From NCBI GenBank assembly GCA_012813795.1, contig GCA_012813795.1_4087.1: a DNA stretch of 64,000 nucleotides, one strand, 5' to 3'. The notes beneath the pieces are model-generated. The model was not told where the DNA came from, made no database searches, and saw only the letters and a list, made by a program, of their open reading frames with translations. Position 1 is the stretch's first letter. Each line of letters opens with the position of its first letter. This document shows, one piece after another, positions 24,289 through 55,385 of this stretch. A program made the position numbers and the translations under genes. The DNA comes from a phage.

Positions 24289-25839
24289 TCATTTACCGTA
24301 CTTGTGCATGATATCCTTTTCCCAATCAGTTACGTTACCATTTTCGTAATCCTGGAAAGAGTTATCAAGCGTGTTCAATGCGTACTCATATGCTTCTGGT
24401 GAATCGATATCAACATCGTCTGCACCATTCACTAGGTCGTTCCATGCCTTTTGTAGTTTACGGGCATTGTTATCAACCTTATGTTTAATCCAACTAATAT
24501 TGCTGTTAATGCTCTTAGGATCTGCACCAGCTTTCTTGCCAATTTCAGCAATCCACATCATTAGCTTTTGTAGTTCATGAATTGACTTATCAGTCATTTT
24601 ACGACCTTTAGCCAATTCAGCGTCCATTTCTGAAGTGTTTGCTTCACCATTAGAACCAACATTAATACCATTTTTAGCAAGAAGTTTACCTAGTTCAAAG
24701 AATGCTGCTTCTGCTGGGAAATCATATCCTTTGTCTTGGTAGTTGTTCCATGCACTATCAAACTCATCTACAAAACTATTTGCATATTGTGGATTATCGA
24801 CTAATGCTTTGTACACAGCCATAGCATGTTCAAAACCTTCTTTGTCTGAACCAAATTCTTGCATATCAGGACGATGAATGTAACCATCCATATCAACTGT
24901 ATCCGGTAAATCACCATAGTCTGGTTCAGCGTCCTTCTGGTCAACAGCACCTTCTTCATCTTTGCGAAGGAGATATCCATCAGGAGTTACTTTCTCACCG
25001 TGTTCAGCTTCATACTTCTTCATTGCACCGAATACTGCATTCATTGCAGTAATGAAGCGAGATTTCTCACCAGGTTTATATGATTCTAATGCTTTCTTCA
25101 ACGCATCTGCTGCAAGTTTAATCTTTTCATCTTTACCTTCAAGACGATTTTGTAACTTAGCTTGTACATTCTTAACTTGTTGTGCATTAGTCTTATCTTC
25201 TGCACCAATTTTTCCAAATGTAGAAACGATTGAGTCAAGATTTGCTACTTCTTGTGCAGGTTCATCAAACTCAATATCATCATCAGCCTGTGGCTTACCT
25301 TCAAGTGCACGCATGATAGTACTGAATACTTCAACAGGATTATTGCTACTATTACCTTCCATACTATCAAGAACAGCTTGTGCTTTATCTTTGAGTTGTT
25401 CTTTAGGAACCGCTTGAAGTGCTTTTACGATACCTTGAATTAGTTGTGGTTTGTTAGCAAAGATCTTCCCAAGTTTATCACTTAACTCTTTGACAGGGTT
25501 AGCAGCTTTAGGTTGTGCAGGGGCTTCTGGTGCTGCTTTAGGTTGTTCTTGTGCATTATCCAGTGCAGCCAATTGTTGCTTCTGCTGTGGGTTCAAAAGG
25601 CCAAGACTGTTGAAGTACTTCAATTTTTCATACTGGGACATGTTTGAAGTATCAAGACCCTGTGATGCAACTGTGTTTGCTTTCCCAGCTTCTCCCGTTC
25701 CTTGGTTGCGAGAACCACGGGAACCTTGACCTGCGTCATGACTTGATTGGCGGCGATTTTTTTCAGCCCATTTCTCCGAATGTCCAGAAAGTGTTGCCCC
25801 ACTTTTTGATTTAAAATTATCTGGCATTTTTTTCTCCAT
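24289..25839 (-). CDS. large acidic/Lys-rich hypothetical protein (516 aa)
   Basis: long ORF; GGAG RBS; low-complexity Q/K/A/E-rich N-terminal half. Confidence 0.65.
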   Translation of the reverse strand: MEKKMPDNFKSKSGATLSGHSEKWAEKNRRQSSHDAGQGSRGSRNQGTGEAGKANTVASQGLDTSNMSQYEKLKYFNSLGLLNPQQKQQLAALDNAQEQPKAAPEAPAQPKAANPVKELSDKLGKIFANKPQLIQGIVKALQAVPKEQLKDKAQAVLDSMEGNSSNNPVEVFSTIMRALEGKPQADDDIEFDEPAQEVANLDSIVSTFGKIGAEDKTNAQQVKNVQAKLQNRLEGKDEKIKLAADALKKALESYKPGEKSRFITAMNAVFGAMKKYEAEHGEKVTPDGYLLRKDEEGAVDQKDAEPDYGDLPDTVDMDGYIHRPDMQEFGSDKEGFEHAMAVYKALVDNPQYANSFVDEFDSAWNNYQDKGYDFPAEAAFFELGKLLAKNGINVGSNGEANTSEMDAELAKGRKMTDKSIHELQKLMMWIAEIGKKAGADPKSINSNISWIKHKVDNNARKLQKAWNDLVNGADDVDIDSPEAYEYALNTLDNSFQDYENGNVTDWEKDIMHKYGK

Positions 25840-25873
25840 AGATTATTAAATGTTACCTCTATGTCATATTTAT

Positions 25874-25906
25874 AGAATAGCAAAAAGGGTCAACAAAAGT
25901 CAACCC
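25874..25906 (-). promoter_or_regulatory. family-A module variant (hairpin + TTGACT, weak -10 TATTCT)
   Basis: GGGTTGAC-tttt-GTTGACCC then tttttgctattct. Confidence 0.5.
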
Positions 25907-28530: not shown

Positions 28531-28563
28531 ATTATAACAAAAAAGGCTGACCGAAGTCAACCT
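28531..28563 (-). promoter_or_regulatory. family-A module (hairpin + TTGACT-N18-TATAAT)
   Basis: revcomp AGGTTGAC-ttcg-GTCAGCCT-tttttgt-TATAAT. Confidence 0.65.
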
Positions 28564-34535: not shown

Positions 34536-34564
34536 ATTATACTGCTATTATTCAGTACTGTCAA
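34536..34564 (-). promoter_or_regulatory. family-B promoter TTGACA(GTACTG)-N17-TATAAT
   Basis: revcomp of tgtcaa 34559-34564 and attata 34536-34541. Confidence 0.6.
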
Positions 34565-34839
34565 TCGATATAAGTACCTTTTTTAACATCACAGACTTCT
34601 TCCATCCAATGTGGATTTTCGTTTTTATCAGTGAAGATTTGTTCTGCTTCTTCTTTTGTTTCAGCTAGGACGATACGGTCCCCATCATCCAAAACACGGA
34701 TACGATAAACTTTCAGTTCTTGTTTCTGCTCAAGGATATTACACAGTTCACGTGCTTTTTCTTCATCGCACTCCCCTTCATTAGCATAAAACCAGATTGC
34801 TTTTTTAATAAGGTCACGTTCTTCTTTGGTAAAAGACAT
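34561..34839 (-). CDS. hypothetical protein
   Basis: 92 aa acidic. Confidence 0.55.
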   Translation of the reverse strand: MSFTKEERDLIKKAIWFYANEGECDEEKARELCNILEQKQELKVYRIRVLDDGDRIVLAETKEEAEQIFTDKNENPHWMEEVCDVKKGTYID

Positions 34840-35481: not shown

Positions 35482-36276
35482 TTAAATTACATAGGGTTTA
35501 TAGTAATGAATCTCATTTGCTATTGCAGTGAAAACTTTCTTATTAAATCTTTCACCATAATCACGAAGTGATTCACCTTCTACGCTTTCAATAAAGTAAT
35601 TATATACTGGTAGTCGTGCACTGTCAATACCTATAAACGATTTCATGTAAATTTGTACTAAACGATTCATACCTGAATTTAAACATTCAACATCAAAGTG
35701 CTTGATACCTTTGTCTAAGTGCTTGAATGCATTGATGATACCACGCTTGAAATCACGCTCCATAGTACTGAATAGATTCTCAGGAAACACTGTAATCGGA
35801 GACATGGATTTAAGAATGTATGTATCTTTTGCATTCTTGATGTACTCAATGAAGCAGTAGTTTACATTAGGCTCAATTGAACGGTCTGCATTATGATACC
35901 AGTACTTAAACTCGCTGTACTCTGCGAACTTATGCTGGCGTAAGGCATTACAATCCTCACACAGTGCAGTCATGTTCTCTTTATCATTACCACCCTGAAG
36001 ACAGTCAAGTACATTATGGTCTAACGTCATGCGTACAAGGCGTTTCCCTTTAAGTACATAAGGTCTGAATTTATAACGGTCTTTAGTACTGTGCTTATGT
36101 AAAGTGAATACTACATTGGATTCACCACAACAATCACATTTAAAGCCGTCACGAGACATTACATGAATGAGTTTGCGAGTATTAGGTCCAAACTCAGATT
36201 TAGTAATATTATCCACAATTTCTGATGGTTGGTAATATTTTGAATTCAGTCGAATCAATTCATCGATAGTACTCAT
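35482..36276 (-). CDS. HNH endonuclease
   Basis: CDCCGES...TLDHNVLDCLQGGNDKENMTALCEDCN (His/Asn/Cys HNH pattern); start moved to Met7 (GAGGA RBS). Confidence 0.7.
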   Translation of the reverse strand: MSTIDELIRLNSKYYQPSEIVDNITKSEFGPNTRKLIHVMSRDGFKCDCCGESNVVFTLHKHSTKDRYKFRPYVLKGKRLVRMTLDHNVLDCLQGGNDKENMTALCEDCNALRQHKFAEYSEFKYWYHNADRSIEPNVNYCFIEYIKNAKDTYILKSMSPITVFPENLFSTMERDFKRGIINAFKHLDKGIKHFDVECLNSGMNRLVQIYMKSFIGIDSARLPVYNYFIESVEGESLRDYGERFNKKVFTAIANEIHYYKPYVI

Positions 36277-36277
36277 T

Positions 36278-36502
36278 TTAGATTTCCTCTTCACTGCATT
36301 CGGTGATTACTTTTTTAACCTCTATAACTCTTACTAAATGATACCCGCACCTATGGTTGAAATTAAACATGTTTACTAATGCATCAGCTTCTGTTTTTGC
36401 CCTAAATTGGAGATTATATATGTGCATAGTTTCATCGAGTGAGGCTTCACCTTTGCTATTGAAAACAATTTTACAAACTTCAAACCTTACTCGATAAATC
36501 AT
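36278..36502 (-). CDS. hypothetical protein
   Basis: 74 aa. Confidence 0.5.
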   Translation of the reverse strand: MIYRVRFEVCKIVFNSKGEASLDETMHIYNLQFRAKTEADALVNMFNFNHRCGYHLVRVIEVKKVITECSEEEI

Positions 36503-36708: not shown

Positions 36709-37332
36709 TGAATGTTCCTTAATAGTTAGTCATCCATCTCTTCGAGATGTCTGTTCGCTTCTAATACTACGTATTCTACGCGAATGATTAATAACTGTCA
36801 AGGACTTTTAATATTGACGGGATTTGAGGAAGGGATTTTTCTTCCCCCCGCTGGGAGGGGAATTTGACGCTGATGGTATCAGAGCTATTGCATTGAAGAT
36901 TACTCTTAATGAGTACGAAAGCGGGTCATCCTGTTTCTCTCTACTTCAGTTTCATATGACGGTCTACACTTTTAAACATAGTGTATCTTCATTAAGTATC
37001 TATGCAATCAAATACTTAATGTGAGTACTCAAATTTTGGACGCAACTTTCCTGTACAAAATTTGATAACTCTCCCTTAGATAATTCGTAAGGTGTTATCC
37101 TTATATGTCTATCTAGGAACCACCAGCCATCCTAACGTGGTTCTTTATAGTGCCGCATTGCCGTGAGGGGTTCATAATATGCCCACATCTGACGGGTTTC
37201 TTCTGCACTTCGCACTGCTGGACTGCTCAACTGCCCTCTACATTTTCGAGTGGATCAGGTTCATGTCATCCATGCCAACAGAATTGTACAATATCATTGT
37301 ATCATGAACATCCATTTTGTCCCATAAAAAAA

Positions 37333-37359: not shown

Positions 37360-38322
37360 TTAGAAATCTTCGTATTCGTACCCTTTTTCAAGTACTATTT
37401 TTTTAAGCTTTTGAATAGCTTCACTATATTTTCGGTGCACAGATGAACGGGACTTAACAATGTTTCCTTTATCATCAACATATCCATTATCAGAAATTTC
37501 ACGAAGGGTTTCTGCTTTGTAATCCCCAAGACCATGAACACGCATGATAATTTCTCGTTCTTTAGTACTCAATTCGTCAATGATTTCTGTGATTGCATAA
37601 CGTAATGGATTACAAATGCTATCAACATTAAGGTTATAATCACGAGCAGATGAACTCAGAATATCCCCAAGGGTTCCGTCTGAATCTGAACCCAGTTGTG
37701 CATCAAGAGTCGTATATGCATTCTGGTATAACAAACAGTTCTTAACGTGCTGAAGCTCGATACCAGTACTCTCAGAGATTAATTCTGGTGTTGGTCGCTT
37801 ACCGTGTTCACGTTGATATGATTCATTAAATCGACGTACTTGGATGTTATGAACGCTCATATAACGTGGTAAGTACACCATGTAATTTGCATCTGAACTT
37901 TCATTATACATAGTCATATAAACGGACGTTGTTGCATATGTAATGAATTTGACATTCTTACTAAGATCAAAGGTTTTAAGTGCTCGCATAAAACCTTCTA
38001 CGCCATATGCAATTTTATCTTCAAACGGAATATAACATGTACACTTTGAAGCAACGTCAACAATCATACCATAGTTGTAACGAAGTAATAGGTCAGTATT
38101 CTTTTTTACATTAATCCCAGCACGAATCTCTTCTATGATAGATTCATTAGTTACACCTGCTGGACGTTTAATACTGATATTACTTTTACTACGAACTTTA
38201 TGTGGAATATCATCTTCAATAACTTCTGATGGTTCAATTGCTTCCAATGGATTGACTTCTTCATTCGCAAAACATTCATCCAGTACTTCTTCGGAAATTG
38301 CGTTTAAGTCTAGTTTCTTCAC
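37360..38322 (-). CDS. RNA polymerase sigma factor, sigma-70 family
   Basis: region-2-like GVEGFMRALKTFDLSKNVKFITYATTSVYMTM and region-4-like LSTKEREIIMRVHGL...TLREIS; GTG start 6 nt after AGGAG. Confidence 0.75.
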   Translation of the reverse strand: MKKLDLNAISEEVLDECFANEEVNPLEAIEPSEVIEDDIPHKVRSKSNISIKRPAGVTNESIIEEIRAGINVKKNTDLLLRYNYGMIVDVASKCTCYIPFEDKIAYGVEGFMRALKTFDLSKNVKFITYATTSVYMTMYNESSDANYMVYLPRYMSVHNIQVRRFNESYQREHGKRPTPELISESTGIELQHVKNCLLYQNAYTTLDAQLGSDSDGTLGDILSSSARDYNLNVDSICNPLRYAITEIIDELSTKEREIIMRVHGLGDYKAETLREISDNGYVDDKGNIVKSRSSVHRKYSEAIQKLKKIVLEKGYEYEDF

Positions 38323-38343
38323 TTACTTCTCCTAATGAAAAAA

Positions 38344-38841
38344 TCAAAATTGGTATACATTAATATTGTCGTCAGTATATTCATCGTGGTTTTTTACCTC
38401 TTTGAAAGTACTGAATATTTTTTGAAGTAGTGTGTCTTGGTTCTCATGCACAGCAGCATCAACCATGTACTCTCCACCACTTCCCATGAAGAATACATAT
38501 TCCTCATGCATGAACTCAAGGTACTTAAAAAACTTCCCGTTCTTTGTTCCTAAGTGAATACAATAATCTTTGGACAACAAGACACAATGGCAGTTCTCTT
38601 TTCTACTGGGCAGTACTATATCACCATATATCAAATACATCAAGACTTTATTGATTTCATTCACTGAACCTGCTGCACTAAACAGACGATCATGAATGTA
38701 TAATGATTTTTGAGTAACTACACCATATTGTTTTTTTGGTTTTAACGGGAATAATCCGAGAAAGTACCTCTCTGTAGAGGTTGTTACTCTTGAATCAGTG
38801 AGCAATAATCCAACACGCTTGTCAACATATACTGTAGTCAT
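38344..38841 (-). CDS. hypothetical protein
   Basis: 165 aa. Confidence 0.6.
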   Translation of the reverse strand: MTTVYVDKRVGLLLTDSRVTTSTERYFLGLFPLKPKKQYGVVTQKSLYIHDRLFSAAGSVNEINKVLMYLIYGDIVLPSRKENCHCVLLSKDYCIHLGTKNGKFFKYLEFMHEEYVFFMGSGGEYMVDAAVHENQDTLLQKIFSTFKEVKNHDEYTDDNINVYQF

Positions 38842-38842
38842 T

Positions 38843-39268
38843 CTACACCTTATCTAAGAATGCGGAATATATATCAATTTCTCTTCCTTTCAATACCTTA
38901 TCAAATGGGAAGGGATCTTTACTTCCAGTTAATATACCAAGTTTTGTGAAAAAATACAAGGCAATGAATTCAGTTATTTTGATGTTTTTCTTACTCTTAA
39001 CCAATTCTGCATAAGCAGAATTATAATCAAATTTTGTAGATGAACCATCAAATCCAAAATAGTGAATGTTGTAATTTTTTGAAAAGTTACTAACTGTCAT
39101 TCTTTCACATATCAAATCAATGGCTACTTTGGACCTACAATGCTTATTGAGTAAATCATAATTACAATTATTCAATGCCTCGTATATATCAAAAGACTCT
39201 TGAGCCAGTGTATGTACTTTAGGCTTAATTAGTTTACTTAGTAAGTACCTTATCTTTTTCAGAATCAT
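38843..39268 (-). CDS. hypothetical protein
   Basis: 141 aa; start overlaps upstream gene by 35 nt. Confidence 0.5.
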   Translation of the reverse strand: MILKKIRYLLSKLIKPKVHTLAQESFDIYEALNNCNYDLLNKHCRSKVAIDLICERMTVSNFSKNYNIHYFGFDGSSTKFDYNSAYAELVKSKKNIKITEFIALYFFTKLGILTGSKDPFPFDKVLKGREIDIYSAFLDKV

Positions 39269-39701
39269 AATAGTACTGCATCTCCGAAAGTAACATTACC
39301 TTATCAATATCAGGGAATGAATCAATAAGTAATGCTTTGATTTCATCCTTTAGCTCTTTGGCTTTTACAGACCATCCTTTGTAATAAGCTTGGAGGATGG
39401 GATCTTTCTTATGCATAGTATCTAATGCATTAACAGCGTAATCCACATGAAATGCAAGTACACCACATAGTTCTTCAATGTACTTCATCTTCATGTTATG
39501 AATATCGCGTTTAGCAGCGTTTGCAAGCACTGTGAACGCAGAATGCATATCACTAAGAGTATGTACTTCAAGTTTATAAAGGTCTTCACAAATGGCTACA
39601 ACGCGTTTTTCTGCCTTGGCTTGCTTAGAGTCTGCTTGGAAAAACAATTCAGACGGTGGATAGACCTTAGTTTTTTCTACCCATTGAACTAATTTATTCA
39701 C
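39234..39701 (-). CDS. hypothetical protein
   Basis: 155 aa. Confidence 0.6.
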   Translation of the reverse strand: MNKLVQWVEKTKVYPPSELFFQADSKQAKAEKRVVAICEDLYKLEVHTLSDMHSAFTVLANAAKRDIHNMKMKYIEELCGVLAFHVDYAVNALDTMHKKDPILQAYYKGWSVKAKELKDEIKALLIDSFPDIDKVMLLSEMQYYYDSEKDKVLTK

Positions 39702-39973
39702 AGTACACCCTCTTCAAAAGATTCAGAAATGATCAGAGCATCATCGTAGTCGTCAGCAACAGAACGTACTACATCTAAATTAGTTTTACCTTGAACACTC
39801 TTAACATCGTTCATGAGATAATTAAGATCTACTTTAGTAACTTTTTCAGAATCGAATACACAAAAAGTAAGTTCAGTATCAGGGCAAATGTTTTTAAGAT
39901 TATTAGAAATAACTTTTTTAAAATCAAAAGACGGAGAAGCAACCAGGTTTACTGCTACTAGAATAGAGTTCAT
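39698..39973 (-). CDS. hypothetical protein
   Basis: 91 aa; downstream of promoter 40014..40042. Confidence 0.55.
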   Translation of the reverse strand: MNSILVAVNLVASPSFDFKKVISNNLKNICPDTELTFCVFDSEKVTKVDLNYLMNDVKSVQGKTNLDVVRSVADDYDDALIISESFEEGVL

Positions 39974-40013: not shown

Positions 40014-40042
40014 ATTGTACTCCTATATTTCAGTACTGTCAA
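40014..40042 (-). promoter_or_regulatory. family-B promoter TTGACA(GTACTG)-N17-TACAAT
   Basis: revcomp of tgtcaa 40037-40042 and attgta 40014-40019. Confidence 0.55.
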
Positions 40043-40298: not shown

Positions 40299-40352
40299 AT
40301 GTGTCCCTCCTTTGTTTTGATAAAATAATTATATCCCTTAACACATTTTATG

Positions 40353-40778
40353 TCAAGATGTTTTTGTTCCTTCCCTTGCCTCTCGTTCAAGAAACTCTTG
40401 GATTATTGAATTTTGTCGTGAACGAACAACTATTGTCATTAACAAAAGTATTGATGATGCAACACCAGGAATGATCTCACCCATTTGAATGAAATAAACT
40501 GTCAGTAATGCAAATGGTACAATAGTTACTGAACTGATCGTTTTCCACCCAAAGTCATTCGCAAAGTTGTTTTTATCTTTCTCGTCATTATCCATTGCAA
40601 TTGTTAGTAACGTAATAAGAGCAGCCAAACCCGCACACAGGCAGTATCCAACAATAGCAATAGTAAACCACGCTGGATTAAGTACTGTACCAATCGAATA
40701 CTTTGTGCATAATACGTCAATTAGACATAAAATACCAAATGAAAAGGGAGCGAGTAATAGTTTATAGTATGTTCTCAT
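40353..40778 (-). CDS. polytopic membrane protein
   Basis: 141 aa, about 4 hydrophobic segments. Confidence 0.6.
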   Translation of the reverse strand: MRTYYKLLLAPFSFGILCLIDVLCTKYSIGTVLNPAWFTIAIVGYCLCAGLAALITLLTIAMDNDEKDKNNFANDFGWKTISSVTIVPFALLTVYFIQMGEIIPGVASSILLLMTIVVRSRQNSIIQEFLEREAREGTKTS

Positions 40779-50696: not shown

Positions 50697-51465
<769 letters not shown>

Positions 51466-51468
51466 ACA

Positions 51469-51601
<133 letters not shown>

Positions 51602-51602
51602 A

Positions 51603-51702
<100 letters not shown>

Positions 51703-51746
51703 ATAGGCACATACGGGTCTGCTTTTAAGCTACTGATTCGGGAATC

Positions 51747-51792
<46 letters not shown>

Positions 51793-51799
51793 CGTTCTT

Positions 51800-52018
<219 letters not shown>

Positions 52019-52027
52019 TAATACCCT

Positions 52028-52429
52028 TTAGTAGTTTAAGTCAGCGGCGTTGAACACACCGAGTGAAGTCTTACCACGTAGTTTAGGGGAAATGACATAT
52101 TTTGTCAATGTCTTTTTACCGTACCAGTACTCGAAATCTTTTTCTTCTACATACGGATTAGGGAAATCCCATTTGCGTTCTTTATGAATTTGCTTGGCCT
52201 GGACTTGAAGCTTTTCAACTTCATCTGGTGGTACAGTATCTACATTATTAAACTGCATGTACATACCTTTTAACCCATCAAGAATTAATTTTTCAGTTTC
52301 TTTAACTAATGTAATCTTTTCGATTCCAGTACTGATATTCATGTAGTCATCTACATAACCATTCCAGATAACAATCTCTGGATTACCTTCGATTCCCTGA
52401 AGCATCTTGATCAAGTCATTCTTTTTCAT
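52028..52429 (-). CDS. hypothetical protein
   Basis: 133 aa. Confidence 0.6.
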   Translation of the reverse strand: MKKNDLIKMLQGIEGNPEIVIWNGYVDDYMNISTGIEKITLVKETEKLILDGLKGMYMQFNNVDTVPPDEVEKLQVQAKQIHKERKWDFPNPYVEEKDFEYWYGKKTLTKYVISPKLRGKTSLGVFNAADLNY

Positions 52430-52437
52430 TTGAATTC

Positions 52438-54078
<1,641 letters not shown>

Positions 54079-54263
54079 ATCACCAACTTTAATTAAAAAA
54101 ATGGATGGTGACGCTTTTAAACGCCGCTGTTAATTCAGCTTTATAACCACCCGTTTTAACTTGCCTTTCGGCTACCTTGACGTGGGGCGTACAGGCTACT
54201 AAAAGCAACTTCTGTAAACATATTTCCACGCCTTACCATTTTCATTATATCAGTACTTTTATC

Positions 54264-54503
54264 TTATACTTTAGTTAGTACTAAGTTGTTGATGTTGTTT
54301 ACATCTGGACAGACGTCGGTGCGATGCATCAATTCAATATCAAGAATGTATTGTTTGATTTTTGAAATGTCAATGTCTTTTTCTTGCATTACGATGATAC
54401 ATGACTCATTTAAAGTATATGTATCATAAGACCATCCCATTCCATCACCACGTGGAACTTTTTGTGATACATTATAACTATAACTCACAAAATACTTACC
54501 CAT
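54264..54503 (-). CDS. hypothetical protein
   Basis: start moved to Met11 ATG downstream of promoter 54536..54563 (track start is TTG next to the -10). Confidence 0.55.
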   Translation of the reverse strand: MGKYFVSYSYNVSQKVPRGDGMGWSYDTYTLNESCIIVMQEKDIDISKIKQYILDIELMHRTDVCPDVNNINNLVLTKV

Positions 54504-54531
54504 TTCAATATACCTTCTGTTGTTAAGATAC

Positions 54532-55385
<854 letters not shown>

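What the first reader, a model, noticed from the sequence alone, without database searches (positions are those of the whole stretch)
37360..38322. Phage-encoded sigma-70 family factor
The 320-aa protein has recognisable region 2 (FITYATTSVYMTM after GVEGFMRALKTFD) and region 4 (LSTKEREIIMRVHGL...TLREISDN) signatures. Together with the -10-only promoters of the + strand array and the AGTACTG-containing promoters, this suggests the phage redirects host RNA polymerase with its own specificity factor.
Basis: partly seen in the sequence, partly recalled or inferred. Interest (0 to 1): 0.55.

Follow-up and report, generated by a model that had tools for sequence, protein, structure and literature searches.

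The report
Jumbo-phage RpoD-like sigma factor gene

Summary
The ORF at 37360-38322 (minus strand, 320 aa, GTG start) is real and is a sigma-70-family protein: Pfam regions 2/3/4, PHROG 351 at 8e-51, PDB SigA/RpoS/RpoD hits, and a confident AlphaFold model. The window is about 98% identical to Escherichia phage A4 (Asteriusvirus), where the gene (A4_181) is already annotated as a sigma factor. [quoted passage not shown]

The promoter links are not supported. AGTACTG-containing promoters are near-perfect host sigma-70 promoters. The "-10-only" plus-strand array resembles the T4-late-like class, and the phage has a separate gp55-like late sigma.

The best candidate regulon is a third class, tGGGACA-N13-TGnTATAAT: 21 sites in A4 against about 1 expected, all on the gene strand. 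They lie upstream of replication genes, the gp55-like sigma gene, a tRNA and an RNA family. This suggests a cascade: host sigma-70, then this sigma, then gp55-like sigma. That assignment is inferred.

The family is a small clade lacking the W433/W434 pair and carrying a beta-hairpin inside the region 4.2 helix-turn-helix.

In passing: directly downstream lies a covariation-supported ~500-nt structured RNA, 4-5 copies per genome, absent from Rfam.

The parts
37360..38322 (-). Sigma-70-family factor CDS, 320 aa, GTG start; ortholog of phage A4 A4_181 and 121Q gp167
38329..38333 (-). Shine-Dalgarno AGGAG, 6 nt before the GTG
38179..38322 (-). Residues 1-48: acidic N-terminal region predicted disordered, with the family-conserved motif KKLDLNxIxEEVLDECF. 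Possibly a region-1.1-like or partner-binding segment; function unknown
37888..38109 (-). Sigma domain 2 (res 72-145). Keeps the equivalents of RpoD D403, F419, K426, F427, T429 and Y430; W433/W434 are replaced by T/S, and Q437/T440/R441 by M/Y/N
37648..37866 (-). Sigma domain 3 (res 153-225). The region 3.0 motif LPRYMSV replaces RpoD IPVHMIE (H455->Y, E458->V)
37387..37605 (-). Sigma domain 4 (res 240-312): helices 240-248, 253-263 and 273-279, then recognition helix 292-312 (SRSSVHRKYSEAIQKLKK)
37453..37485 (-). Family-specific ~10-residue beta-hairpin insertion (GYVDDKGNIVK, res 280-290) in the turn of the region 4.2 helix-turn-helix
37326..37355 (-). Intrinsic terminator of the sigma operon (GGGTTGAC-TTAG-GTCAGCCC followed by T7)
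40328..40356 (-). Host-type early promoter TTGACA-N17-TATAAT (12/12 match) at the head of the gene block that ends with the sigma gene
40014..40042 (-). Second host-type early promoter, TTGACA-N17-TACAAT with AGTACTG in the spacer, upstream of the five-gene run 39973..37360
37296..37323 (-). Candidate target ('middle-class') promoter GGGACA-N13-TGA-TACAAT, immediately after the sigma terminator
36815..37289 (-). Structured non-coding RNA (~480 nt) transcribed from that promoter; one of four paralogs per genome. Putative regulon member, not part of the sigma gene
55271..55298 (-). Second middle-class promoter in the window, TGGACA-N13-TGA-TATAAT, directly upstream of tRNA-Ser (55260..55171)

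Best explanation
The gene encodes an early-expressed, phage-encoded sigma-70-family factor belonging to a small clade restricted to RaK2/121Q/CBB-type jumbo phages. Host sigma-70 holoenzyme transcribes it from consensus early promoters (shown from sequence). The protein then most likely binds host core RNA polymerase through its sigma-2 and sigma-4 domains and directs it to a distinct 'middle' promoter class, tGGGACA-N13-TGnTATAAT with a strict 16-nt spacer (inferred). Its conserved A(-11)-flipping pocket residues would read the TATAAT. Its modified region 4.2 (R584 kept; E585S, R588H, Q589R; beta-hairpin in the HTH turn) would read the non-host -35-like hexamer. Those promoters precede replication and recombination genes, the gene for the gp55-like late sigma, a tRNA and a multi-copy structured RNA. 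The protein would therefore be the middle tier of a cascade: host sigma-70 (early), then this sigma (middle), then the gp55-like sigma (late, nATAAATA promoters).
For: Identity as a sigma. AlphaFold pLDDT is 80-89 over sigma 2/3/4, and the top 50 Foldseek PDB hits are all sigmaS/sigmaA/sigma70. Early expression: the gene is last in a co-directional block behind TTGACA-N17-TATAAT promoters at 40356 and 40042, and ends at an intrinsic terminator; the CBB ortholog also lies in the predicted early region (PMC5259590). A distinct class exists: 12 of 72 GGGACA copies in A4 are followed at exactly 16 nt by a TATAAT-like hexamer. There are 21 NRGACA-N13-TGn-TATAAT sites, all on the gene strand, against 1.08 +/- 1.02 in shuffles. 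Locations include upstream of the gp55-like sigma, SSB (x2), primase, topoisomerase II, an exonuclease, Clp proteins, tRNA-Ser and all four RNA paralogs. The same architecture was published for CBB as TGAAACG-N13-TGnTATAAT, upstream of DNA-synthesis genes and the gp55-like gene (PMC5259590 Table S6). Orthologous tandem SSB promoters keep the architecture in 121Q, JNE01, RaK2, fENko-Kae01, Yen9-04, CBB and XbC2 with lineage-specific hexamers. PA5oct, which gave no hit to this sigma, has TTGACA-N17-TATAAT at the orthologous SSB promoter. The -35-contacting positions of region 4.2 differ from RpoD, and generic sigma hits stop aligning exactly at the family-specific insertion.
Against: There are no expression or binding data; the link between this sigma and the middle class is correlative. 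The -10 part of the class is a textbook extended -10 (TGnTATAAT), which host sigma-70 can use without a -35 element. Meanwhile this sigma lacks the RpoD residues that read TG (H455, E458) and -12 (Q437, T440), as well as the W433/W434 pair. Covariation between the recognition helix and the -35-like hexamer is only partial and is confounded by phylogeny: fENko (SRTSLHRCY) and A4 (SRSSVHRKY) share GGGACA, JNE01 (ARSSLHRKY) has GGAACG, and CBB/Yen9-04 (SKATLSRRY) have GAAACG. The PA5oct contrast is a single lineage. Core-binding residues of region 2.2 are only partly conserved: D403 is kept, while Q406, E407 and N409 are not.
Confidence: 0.55

Rival explanations
1. The middle-class promoters are read by host sigma-70 through their extended -10. 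The GGGACA-type element would be bound by a separate phage activator (a MotA/AsiA-style 'sigma appropriation') or would be dispensable. The phage sigma would then serve another purpose, for example a general substitute that keeps phage TTGACA/TATAAT-type transcription going after host sigma-70 is inactivated.
For: TGnTATAAT is the optimal sigma-70 extended -10, and this sigma lacks the H455/E458/Q437/T440 equivalents. T4 middle promoters have the same logic, a sigma-70 -10 plus a replacement -35-region box (established knowledge). Ten of 42 exact host-type promoters in A4 also carry TGn.
Against: A strictly spaced, lineage-specific -35-like hexamer is conserved wherever this sigma family occurs, and it is replaced by TTGACA in PA5oct, which lacks the sigma. 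No AsiA-like sequence was detected in A4, but that check used tblastn with a sequence recalled from memory and has low sensitivity. The sigma's region 4.2 is the most diverged and family-specific part of the protein, as expected if it reads a new element.
Confidence: 0.25
2. One reading: the sigma recognises the '-10-only' promoters of the plus-strand array and/or the AGTACTG-containing promoters.
For: The eight array promoters (ATTAAATAnnnTATAATGAATA) have a TATAAT and no -35 or TGn. A sigma without strong -35 reading could in principle use them.
Against: The AGTACTG promoters are 11-12/12 matches to the host consensus and drive the early region that contains the sigma gene itself. AGTACT is enriched genome-wide and mostly in coding sequence. 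The array carries TTAAATA at the position where structural genes carry nATAAATA, and a dedicated gp55-like late sigma exists. The eight array promoters are near-identical because the genes are tandem paralogs, so their conservation says little.
Confidence: 0.1
3. The protein does not initiate transcription. It acts as a sigma decoy or competitor that occupies host core polymerase, or binds a host factor through its acidic N-terminus, to shut off host transcription.
For: It has lost the W433/W434 pair used by group 1/2 sigmas at the upstream fork junction. Region 2.2 core-binding residues are diverged. The N-terminal motif is conserved, acidic and predicted disordered.
Against: The A(-11) pocket residues are retained (F419, K426, F427, T429, Y430 equivalents). 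All three DNA-reading domains are conserved across the family, and the recognition helix is well conserved and basic. Group 3 sigmas also lack the W-W pair yet are functional (established knowledge).
Confidence: 0.07

Closest known systems
Annotated orthologs in Asteriusvirus and related jumbo phages: A4 A4_181 (99% aa identity), 121Q gp167 and PBECO4 (73%), RaK2 ORF244 (42%), CBB_513 and GAP32 (34-35%). These are the 'RpoD-like sigma of group 2 jumbo phages' of Iyer et al. 2021 (PMC7824862)
   Same: Same gene and same genomic context: early region of short ORFs, with the gene followed by the RNA element. Same domain set, same insertion and same N-terminal motif.
   Different: Nothing substantive; the window phage is a close variant of A4. 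None of these orthologs appears to have been tested experimentally in the papers found.
Bacterial group 1/2 sigma factors (E. coli RpoD, RpoS; SigA)
   Same: Regions 2, 3 and 4 in the same order. The best profile and structure matches are to these proteins. Equivalents of D403, F427, T429, Y430 and P453 are conserved, and R584 is conserved.
   Different: No region 1.1/1.2 or non-conserved region. Scores are far below the RpoD/RpoS curated cut-offs (91 vs 354 bits). The W433/W434 pair is absent, H455/E458, Q437/T440/R441 and E585/R588/Q589 are changed, and there is a beta-hairpin insertion in the 4.2 HTH.
Bacillus phage SPO1 gp28 (middle sigma) and gp33/34 (late): the classic phage sigma cascade
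   Same: Proposed logic: host primary sigma reads early promoters, an early phage sigma replaces it for middle genes, and the middle genes include the late sigma (established knowledge; PMC13401047 abstract).
   Different: No detectable sequence relationship was sought or found here. SPO1 sigmas are short and lack a region 3. In this phage the late factor is T4 gp55-like, not SPO1-like.
T4 middle transcription (AsiA + MotA sigma appropriation) and T4 late transcription (gp55/gp33/gp45)
   Same: The middle-class promoters resemble T4 middle promoters in design: an excellent sigma-70-type (often extended) -10 plus a non-host element in place of the -35. The late class nATAAATA resembles T4 TATAAATA, and a gp55-like gene is present.
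   Different: Here a complete RpoD-like sigma is encoded instead of, or in addition to, an appropriation system. No AsiA-like sequence was found, though the check was weak.
CBB/GAP32 'divergent RpoD-like promoters' (TGAAACG -35, Buttimer 2017; Abbasifar 2014)
   Same: Identical architecture and gene neighbourhoods: heptamer-N13-TGnTATAAT upstream of DNA-synthesis genes and the gp55-like gene.
   Different: The hexamer is GGGACA/GAGACA in Asteriusvirus and GAAACG/GGAACG in CBB, XbC2 and Yen9-04. That paper did not assign the class to the phage sigma.

Membership tests
Sigma-70 family (any group) | Sigma domain 2 (regions 2.1-2.4) with core-binding and -10 melting determinants | tested here: met
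   Pfam Sigma70_r2 E 5e-5, 23.4 bits against a cut-off of 24. NCBIfam RpoD_Cterm 7e-26 over res 79-283. PDB SigA alignments run from res 74. AlphaFold gives a four-helix sigma-2 at pLDDT 80-89. The equivalents of D403, F419, K426, F427, T429 and Y430 are conserved.
Sigma-70 family (any group) | Sigma domain 4 with the region 4.2 helix-turn-helix | tested here: met
   Pfam Sigma70_r4 is partial only (res 248-278, 17.8 vs 24.1 bits). AlphaFold shows helices 240-248, 253-263, 273-279 and 292-312 with a beta-hairpin (281-289) inserted in the turn, pLDDT 82-87. The domain is present but atypical.
Sigma-70 groups 1-3 | Sigma domain 3 (regions 3.0-3.2) | tested here: met
   Pfam Sigma70_r3 E 1.1e-10, 41.9 bits, above the 25.3 cut-off.
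Sigma-70 family (any group) | Binds core RNA polymerase and confers promoter-specific initiation | not testable with these tools
   Needs biochemistry or infected-cell pull-downs. No experimental paper on this family was found.
Group 1 primary sigma (RpoD/SigA equivalog) | Full-length match above curated cut-offs, including regions 1.1/1.2 | tested here: not met
   The best NCBIfam score is 91 bits against a cut-off of 354. All RpoD/RpoS equivalog models score far below their thresholds. The N-terminus (res 1-48) is disordered, acidic and unrelated in sequence.
Group 1/2 sigma | Invariant W433/W434 pair and Q437/T440 (-12 and fork-junction recognition); H455/E458 (extended -10) | tested here: not met
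   These positions are T132/S133, M136/Y139 and Y154/V157. The whole phage family lacks the W-W pair, while the nearest bacterial-type hits have it.
RpoD-like sigma clade of group 2 (RaK2-like) jumbo phages | Orthology with the annotated sigma of 121Q, RaK2, GAP32 and CBB, in the same genomic context | tested here: met
   tblastn gives 99% to A4, 73% to 121Q, 42% to RaK2 and 33-35% to GAP32/CBB/BF, all full length. The region is collinear with A4. The insertion and the N-terminal motif are shared. There are 17 clusters at E <= 1e-30, followed by a gap to generic sigmas.
T4 gp55-type late sigma | Similarity to gp55 (a minimal region-2-like factor) | tested here: not met
   The Pfam, PHROG and NCBIfam hits are to the RpoD/RpoS/SigF/FliA type only. 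The gp55-like protein of this phage type is a different gene (A4_588), which lies outside the window.

The most novel reading that the evidence does not exclude
This sigma clade may be a mechanistically distinct variant of the sigma-70 family: no W-W pair, its own region 3.0 motif, and a beta-hairpin splitting the region 4.2 helix-turn-helix. It would read a hybrid promoter, a non-host -35-like hexamer at a rigid 16-nt spacing plus an extended -10. Its regulon would include the late sigma gene and also a previously undescribed, covariation-supported ~500-nt structured RNA kept in 4-5 copies in every RaK2-like jumbo phage. The sigma gene and one RNA copy would then form a conserved regulatory module whose RNA has an unknown, possibly central, role in jumbo-phage development.
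Probability: 0.4. Interest if true: 0.7.

Novelty: already known. Interest (0 to 1): 0.3.

Why it matters
As stated, a phage-encoded sigma-70-family factor, the finding adds nothing new. [quoted passage not shown]

What would matter is the untested part. No member of this clade has an assigned promoter specificity. The analysis here gives a concrete, testable pairing: this sigma with the tGGGACA-N13-TGnTATAAT class. It also gives a three-tier sigma cascade for a large, therapeutically used group of coliphages, and a structural oddity (an HTH interrupted by a beta-hairpin) that could show how -35 recognition can be re-engineered.

The more surprising by-product is the large structured RNA family next to the gene.

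Tried and rejected
1. MAFFT alignment with E. coli RpoD placed the RpoD recognition helix opposite the phage 'GYVDDKGNIVK' segment. I rejected this after AlphaFold showed that segment to be a beta-hairpin followed by the real recognition helix.

2. I tested covariation between recognition-helix residues and the -35-like hexamer across seven phages. It is only partial and confounded by phylogeny, so I do not use it as positive evidence.

3. I looked for the CBB-type TGAAACG element in the window. Only chance occurrences without a properly spaced -10 were found.

4. AsiA-like protein: tblastn of T4 AsiA (sequence recalled from memory) against A4 gave nothing below E = 1. Sensitivity is low, and MotA was not tested.

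5. The second 'sigma-70 family' annotation in A4 (A4_187; window 34839..34564) has no Pfam support, so I treat it as an unsupported annotation.

6. Pfam on the five upstream operon genes and three downstream ORFs gave no hits.

7. Rfam at gathering threshold and at E <= 1 on the gene-free region returned only terminator-like fragments.

9. My crude gene caller for A4 was used only to locate intergenic regions. Gene functions are quoted from the GenBank annotation.

Full report
**Observation.** The window holds an ORF at exactly 37360..38322 on the minus strand. It is 320 aa, starts with GTG and has an AGGAG 6 nt upstream. Profile searches leave no doubt about the family:
- Pfam Sigma70_r3 1.1e-10 (above the curated cut-off), Sigma70_r2 5e-5 (0.6 bit below the cut-off), and Sigma70_r4 2e-3 covering only residues 248-278.
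- PHROG 351 'RNA polymerase sigma factor' 8e-51 over the full length.
- NCBIfam RpoD_Cterm 7e-26, but far below every equivalog cut-off.
- PDB SigA/RpoD/RpoS chains 3e-18 to 1e-12 over residues ~75-278.
- An AlphaFold model built on 21 homologs is confident (pLDDT 80-89) over three helical domains. Its top 50 Foldseek matches in the PDB are all sigmaS/sigmaA/sigma70 chains.

**Provenance and prior knowledge.** The region is 98% identical in DNA, and collinear over the whole window, with Escherichia phage A4 (ON286972, Asteriusvirus, 355.5 kb). The protein is 99% identical to A4_181, annotated 'sigma-70 family RNA polymerase sigma factor'. Full-length orthologs are annotated as sigma factors in 121Q (gp167) and PBECO4 (73%), RaK2 (42%), and GAP32, CBB, BF and Yen9-04 (33-35%).

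Iyer et al. 2021 list phage-encoded sigma factors, of a minimal and an RpoD-like type, as a defining trait of 'group 2' jumbo phages, which lack their own RNA polymerase (PMC7824862); the Sharanji paper calls the RpoD-like sigma a hallmark of group 2. Buttimer et al. 2017 place the CBB ortholog in the predicted early region (PMC5259590). The Sharanji, phAPEC6 and fEgEco12 papers simply note the gene. I found no experimental work on any member. The finding as stated is therefore already known.

**Anatomy of the protein.** An exhaustive HMMER search of 1.84 billion representatives finds only 17 clusters with E <= 1e-30. There is then a gap to generic RpoD-type sigmas at 1e-21 and weaker. Family members align through residues ~311-318, whereas generic sigmas stop at 277-283. 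Family-wide alignments show four signatures.

1. An acidic N-terminus, predicted disordered, with a conserved KKLxLxxIxxEVLDExF motif in place of regions 1.1/1.2.
2. In region 2.3/2.4, the residues that form the A(-11) pocket of RpoD are kept (F419, K426, F427, T429, Y430; also D403). The W433/W434 pair is T/S here and is absent from the entire family. Q437/T440/R441 are M/Y/N.
3. Region 3.0 reads LPRYMSV instead of IPVHMIE (H455->Y, E458->V).
4. In region 4.2 the helix TLREISD (273-279) is followed by a beta-hairpin (281-289, GYVDDKGNIV) and only then by the recognition helix SRSSVHRKYSEAIQKLKK (292-312).

On my manual register, which rests on the model's helix boundaries and is an inference, R584 is kept while E585, R588 and Q589 become S, H and R. 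The protein is thus a bona fide sigma-70-family member. It is neither an RpoD nor an RpoS ortholog, and its DNA-reading surfaces are altered.

**Context in the window.** The gene is the last of a co-directional run of small ORFs. That run lies behind a perfect TTGACA-N17-TATAAT promoter (40356-40328) and a TTGACA-N17-TACAAT promoter (40042-40014). The gene ends at a strong intrinsic terminator (37355-37326). The whole minus-strand part of the window is studded with perfect or near-perfect host-type promoters, the signature of an early region read by unmodified host holoenzyme.

The 'AGTACTG-containing promoters' are exactly these host-consensus promoters, with AGTACTG in the spacer (for example TTGACTAAATAGTTCAGTACTGTATAAT at 54563). 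They need no phage sigma. AGTACT is also the commonest hexamer of the window (178 copies). It is 7.7-fold over-represented across A4 (922 copies), with 83% of copies in coding sequence, so it does not mark a promoter class.

The plus-strand array (eight tandem paralogs annotated as kelch-like or 'DNA condensation' proteins) has near-identical cassettes: a hairpin, a T-run, then ATTAAATAnnnTATAATGAATAAAGGAGG. Genome-wide in A4, the most enriched upstream word outside host-type promoters is ATAAATA (31 observed against 1.2 expected). It lies mostly 30-55 nt before the capsid, portal, scaffold, sheath, baseplate and fibre genes. This matches the published T4-late-like class of CBB and GAP32. The array's TTAAATA sits in the equivalent position, and A4 encodes a separate gp55-like 'sigma factor for late transcription' (A4_588). 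The array is therefore better explained by the late system.

**A better candidate regulon.** Upstream of replication-type genes a third class appears: [G/T][G/A]GACA-N13-TG[A/C]TATAAT.
- Of the 72 GGGACA copies in A4, 12 are followed at exactly 16 nt by a TATAAT-like hexamer. By contrast, host-type TTGACA prefers a 17-nt spacer.
- With the TGn requirement there are 21 sites, all on the gene-sense strand, against 1.08 +/- 1.02 (maximum 4) in block shuffles.
- They precede the gp55-like sigma gene, SSB (two in tandem), primase, topoisomerase II, an exonuclease, PNK, Clp-type proteins, a nudix protein and tRNA-Ser (in the window at 55298-55271).
- They also precede four gene-free regions, one of which starts right after the sigma terminator (window 37323-37296).

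CBB's published 'divergent RpoD-like' class has the same architecture (TGAAACG-N13-TGnTATAAT) in the same neighbourhoods, including the gp55-like gene (Table S6). Orthologous SSB promoters in 121Q, JNE01, RaK2, fENko-Kae01, Yen9-04, CBB and XbC2 keep the design with lineage-specific hexamers: GGGACA, GGAACG, TGAACA and GAAACG. PA5oct gave no hit to this sigma, and it has a plain TTGACA-N17-TATAAT promoter at the orthologous position.

**Mechanism proposed.**
- Shown: the protein is a sigma-70-family factor; it lies in a host-promoter-driven early block; a distinct, conserved, non-host promoter class exists; and a separate late sigma and late class exist.
- Inferred: the protein replaces sigma-70 on host core polymerase and reads the middle class, forming a three-tier cascade of host sigma-70, this sigma and the gp55-like sigma.
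- Caveats: the -10 half of the class is an ideal sigma-70 extended -10, while this sigma lacks the RpoD residues that read TG and -12. Covariation between helix and hexamer is partial and confounded by phylogeny. The PA5oct contrast is a single lineage.

The main rival is host sigma-70 plus a phage activator, as with MotA/AsiA in T4. It stays open: my only check for AsiA was a weak tblastn with a remembered sequence.

**By-product.** The 620-nt gene-free stretch after the sigma gene has three paralogs in A4, each behind a middle-class promoter. It is conserved at about 70% nucleotide identity in CBB, GAP32, BF, Yen9-04, XbC2 and fENko, where the sigma protein is only 33-38% identical. It occurs in 4-5 copies per genome across 71 phage records and is almost never annotated.

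Eighteen distinct copies give a consensus of 81 base pairs in 16 helices, and 46 pairs show compensatory changes. In the controls, 96.5% of cells are paired against 40-47% when partners are slid. The covariation score is 0.445 against 0.05-0.07 when partners are slid and 0.157 when shuffled, and 0 of 500 shuffles reach any observed measure. Rfam has no match, and I found no paper describing it. All 14 copies sampled from other phages are also preceded by the middle-class promoter.

**Verdict.** The protein interpretation is supported and the promoter links are not. Novelty is 'already known', and the interest of the finding as given is low to moderate. The untested specificity and the adjacent RNA family are the parts worth following.

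Noticed in passing
window 36815-37289 (- strand); paralogs at A4 65170-65649, 125756-126315 and 205623-206146; loci L024-L038: A ~500-nt structured non-coding RNA family, 4-5 copies per genome in all RaK2/121Q/CBB-type jumbo phages, about 70% nt identity across genera, and each copy behind a middle-class promoter. It has 81 pairs, 46 with compensatory changes; 96.5% of cells are paired against ~42% for slid controls. No Rfam family matches, no conserved ORF is present and no literature was found. Function unknown.
   Followed up: partly
whole window (178 sites; e.g. 214-221, 4177-4184, 14007-14014) and the whole A4 genome: The palindrome AGTACT is the most frequent hexamer: 8.2x expected in the window, 922 copies (7.7x) in A4, and CAGTACTG occurs 41 times in the window. 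83% of copies are in coding sequence, in all three frames (385/127/249). It is also 5-10x enriched in 121Q, BF, GAP32, Yen9-04 and metagenomic relatives. It appears in promoter spacers, terminator loops and RNA hairpins. The cause is unexplained; a binding or modification site is possible.
   Followed up: partly
window - strand: -35 hexamers at 28560, 28917, 27192, 24277, 21169, 20440, 18226: Combined terminator-promoter cassettes. The -35 TTGACT lies inside the stem of an intrinsic terminator (GGGTTGACTTCGGTCAGCCC), and the terminator's T-run runs into TGCTATAAT. One ~45-nt unit therefore ends one transcript and starts the next.
   Followed up: no
A4 genome; window sites 37296-37323 and 55271-55298: Three promoter classes in this phage type: host-type TTGACA-N17-TATAAT (early regions), tGGGACA-N13-TGnTATAAT (replication genes, gp55-like sigma, tRNA, RNAs), and nATAAATA (structural genes). 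I did not find the middle class described for Asteriusvirus; the homologous class is published for CBB and GAP32.
   Followed up: yes
window 35482-36294 (- strand): A 270-aa ORF with HNH-like Cys/His motifs (CDCCG...LDHN...CEDCN) lies in a stretch of the window (about 35737-36256) that does not align with A4. 121Q-type relatives annotate an HNH endonuclease nearby, so it is probably a mobile homing endonuclease insertion. There was no Pfam hit at E <= 0.01.
   Followed up: partly
window 282-10571 (+ strand): An array of eight tandem paralogous genes (about 270-396 aa; annotated in A4 as 'putative DNA condensation protein' or kelch-like, i.e. RCC1-type repeats). Each has its own hairpin terminator containing AGTACT and a near-identical promoter/RBS cassette.
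   Followed up: partly
window 34564-34839 (- strand): The ortholog of A4_187 (92 aa) is annotated in A4 as a second 'sigma-70 family RNA polymerase sigma factor', but has no Pfam sigma match. The annotation looks unsupported.
   Followed up: partly
window 25859-25883 (- strand), upstream of the ORF 25827..24289: An exact T4-late consensus TATAAATA follows a TTGACT-containing terminator hairpin, upstream of a 512-aa gene inside an otherwise early-looking region. This may be a late-expressed gene embedded among early genes.
   Followed up: no
window 51131-55260 (- strand): A cluster of five tRNA genes (Thr, Asn, Met, and two Ser). The tRNA-Ser(UGA) at 55171-55260 is directly preceded by a middle-class promoter.
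   Followed up: partly
A4 genome: All-G/C palindromic hexamers (GCGCGC, CCGCGG, CCCGGG, CGGCCG, GCCGGC, CGCGCG) have zero copies against about 10 expected each. This is consistent with restriction-site avoidance.
   Followed up: no
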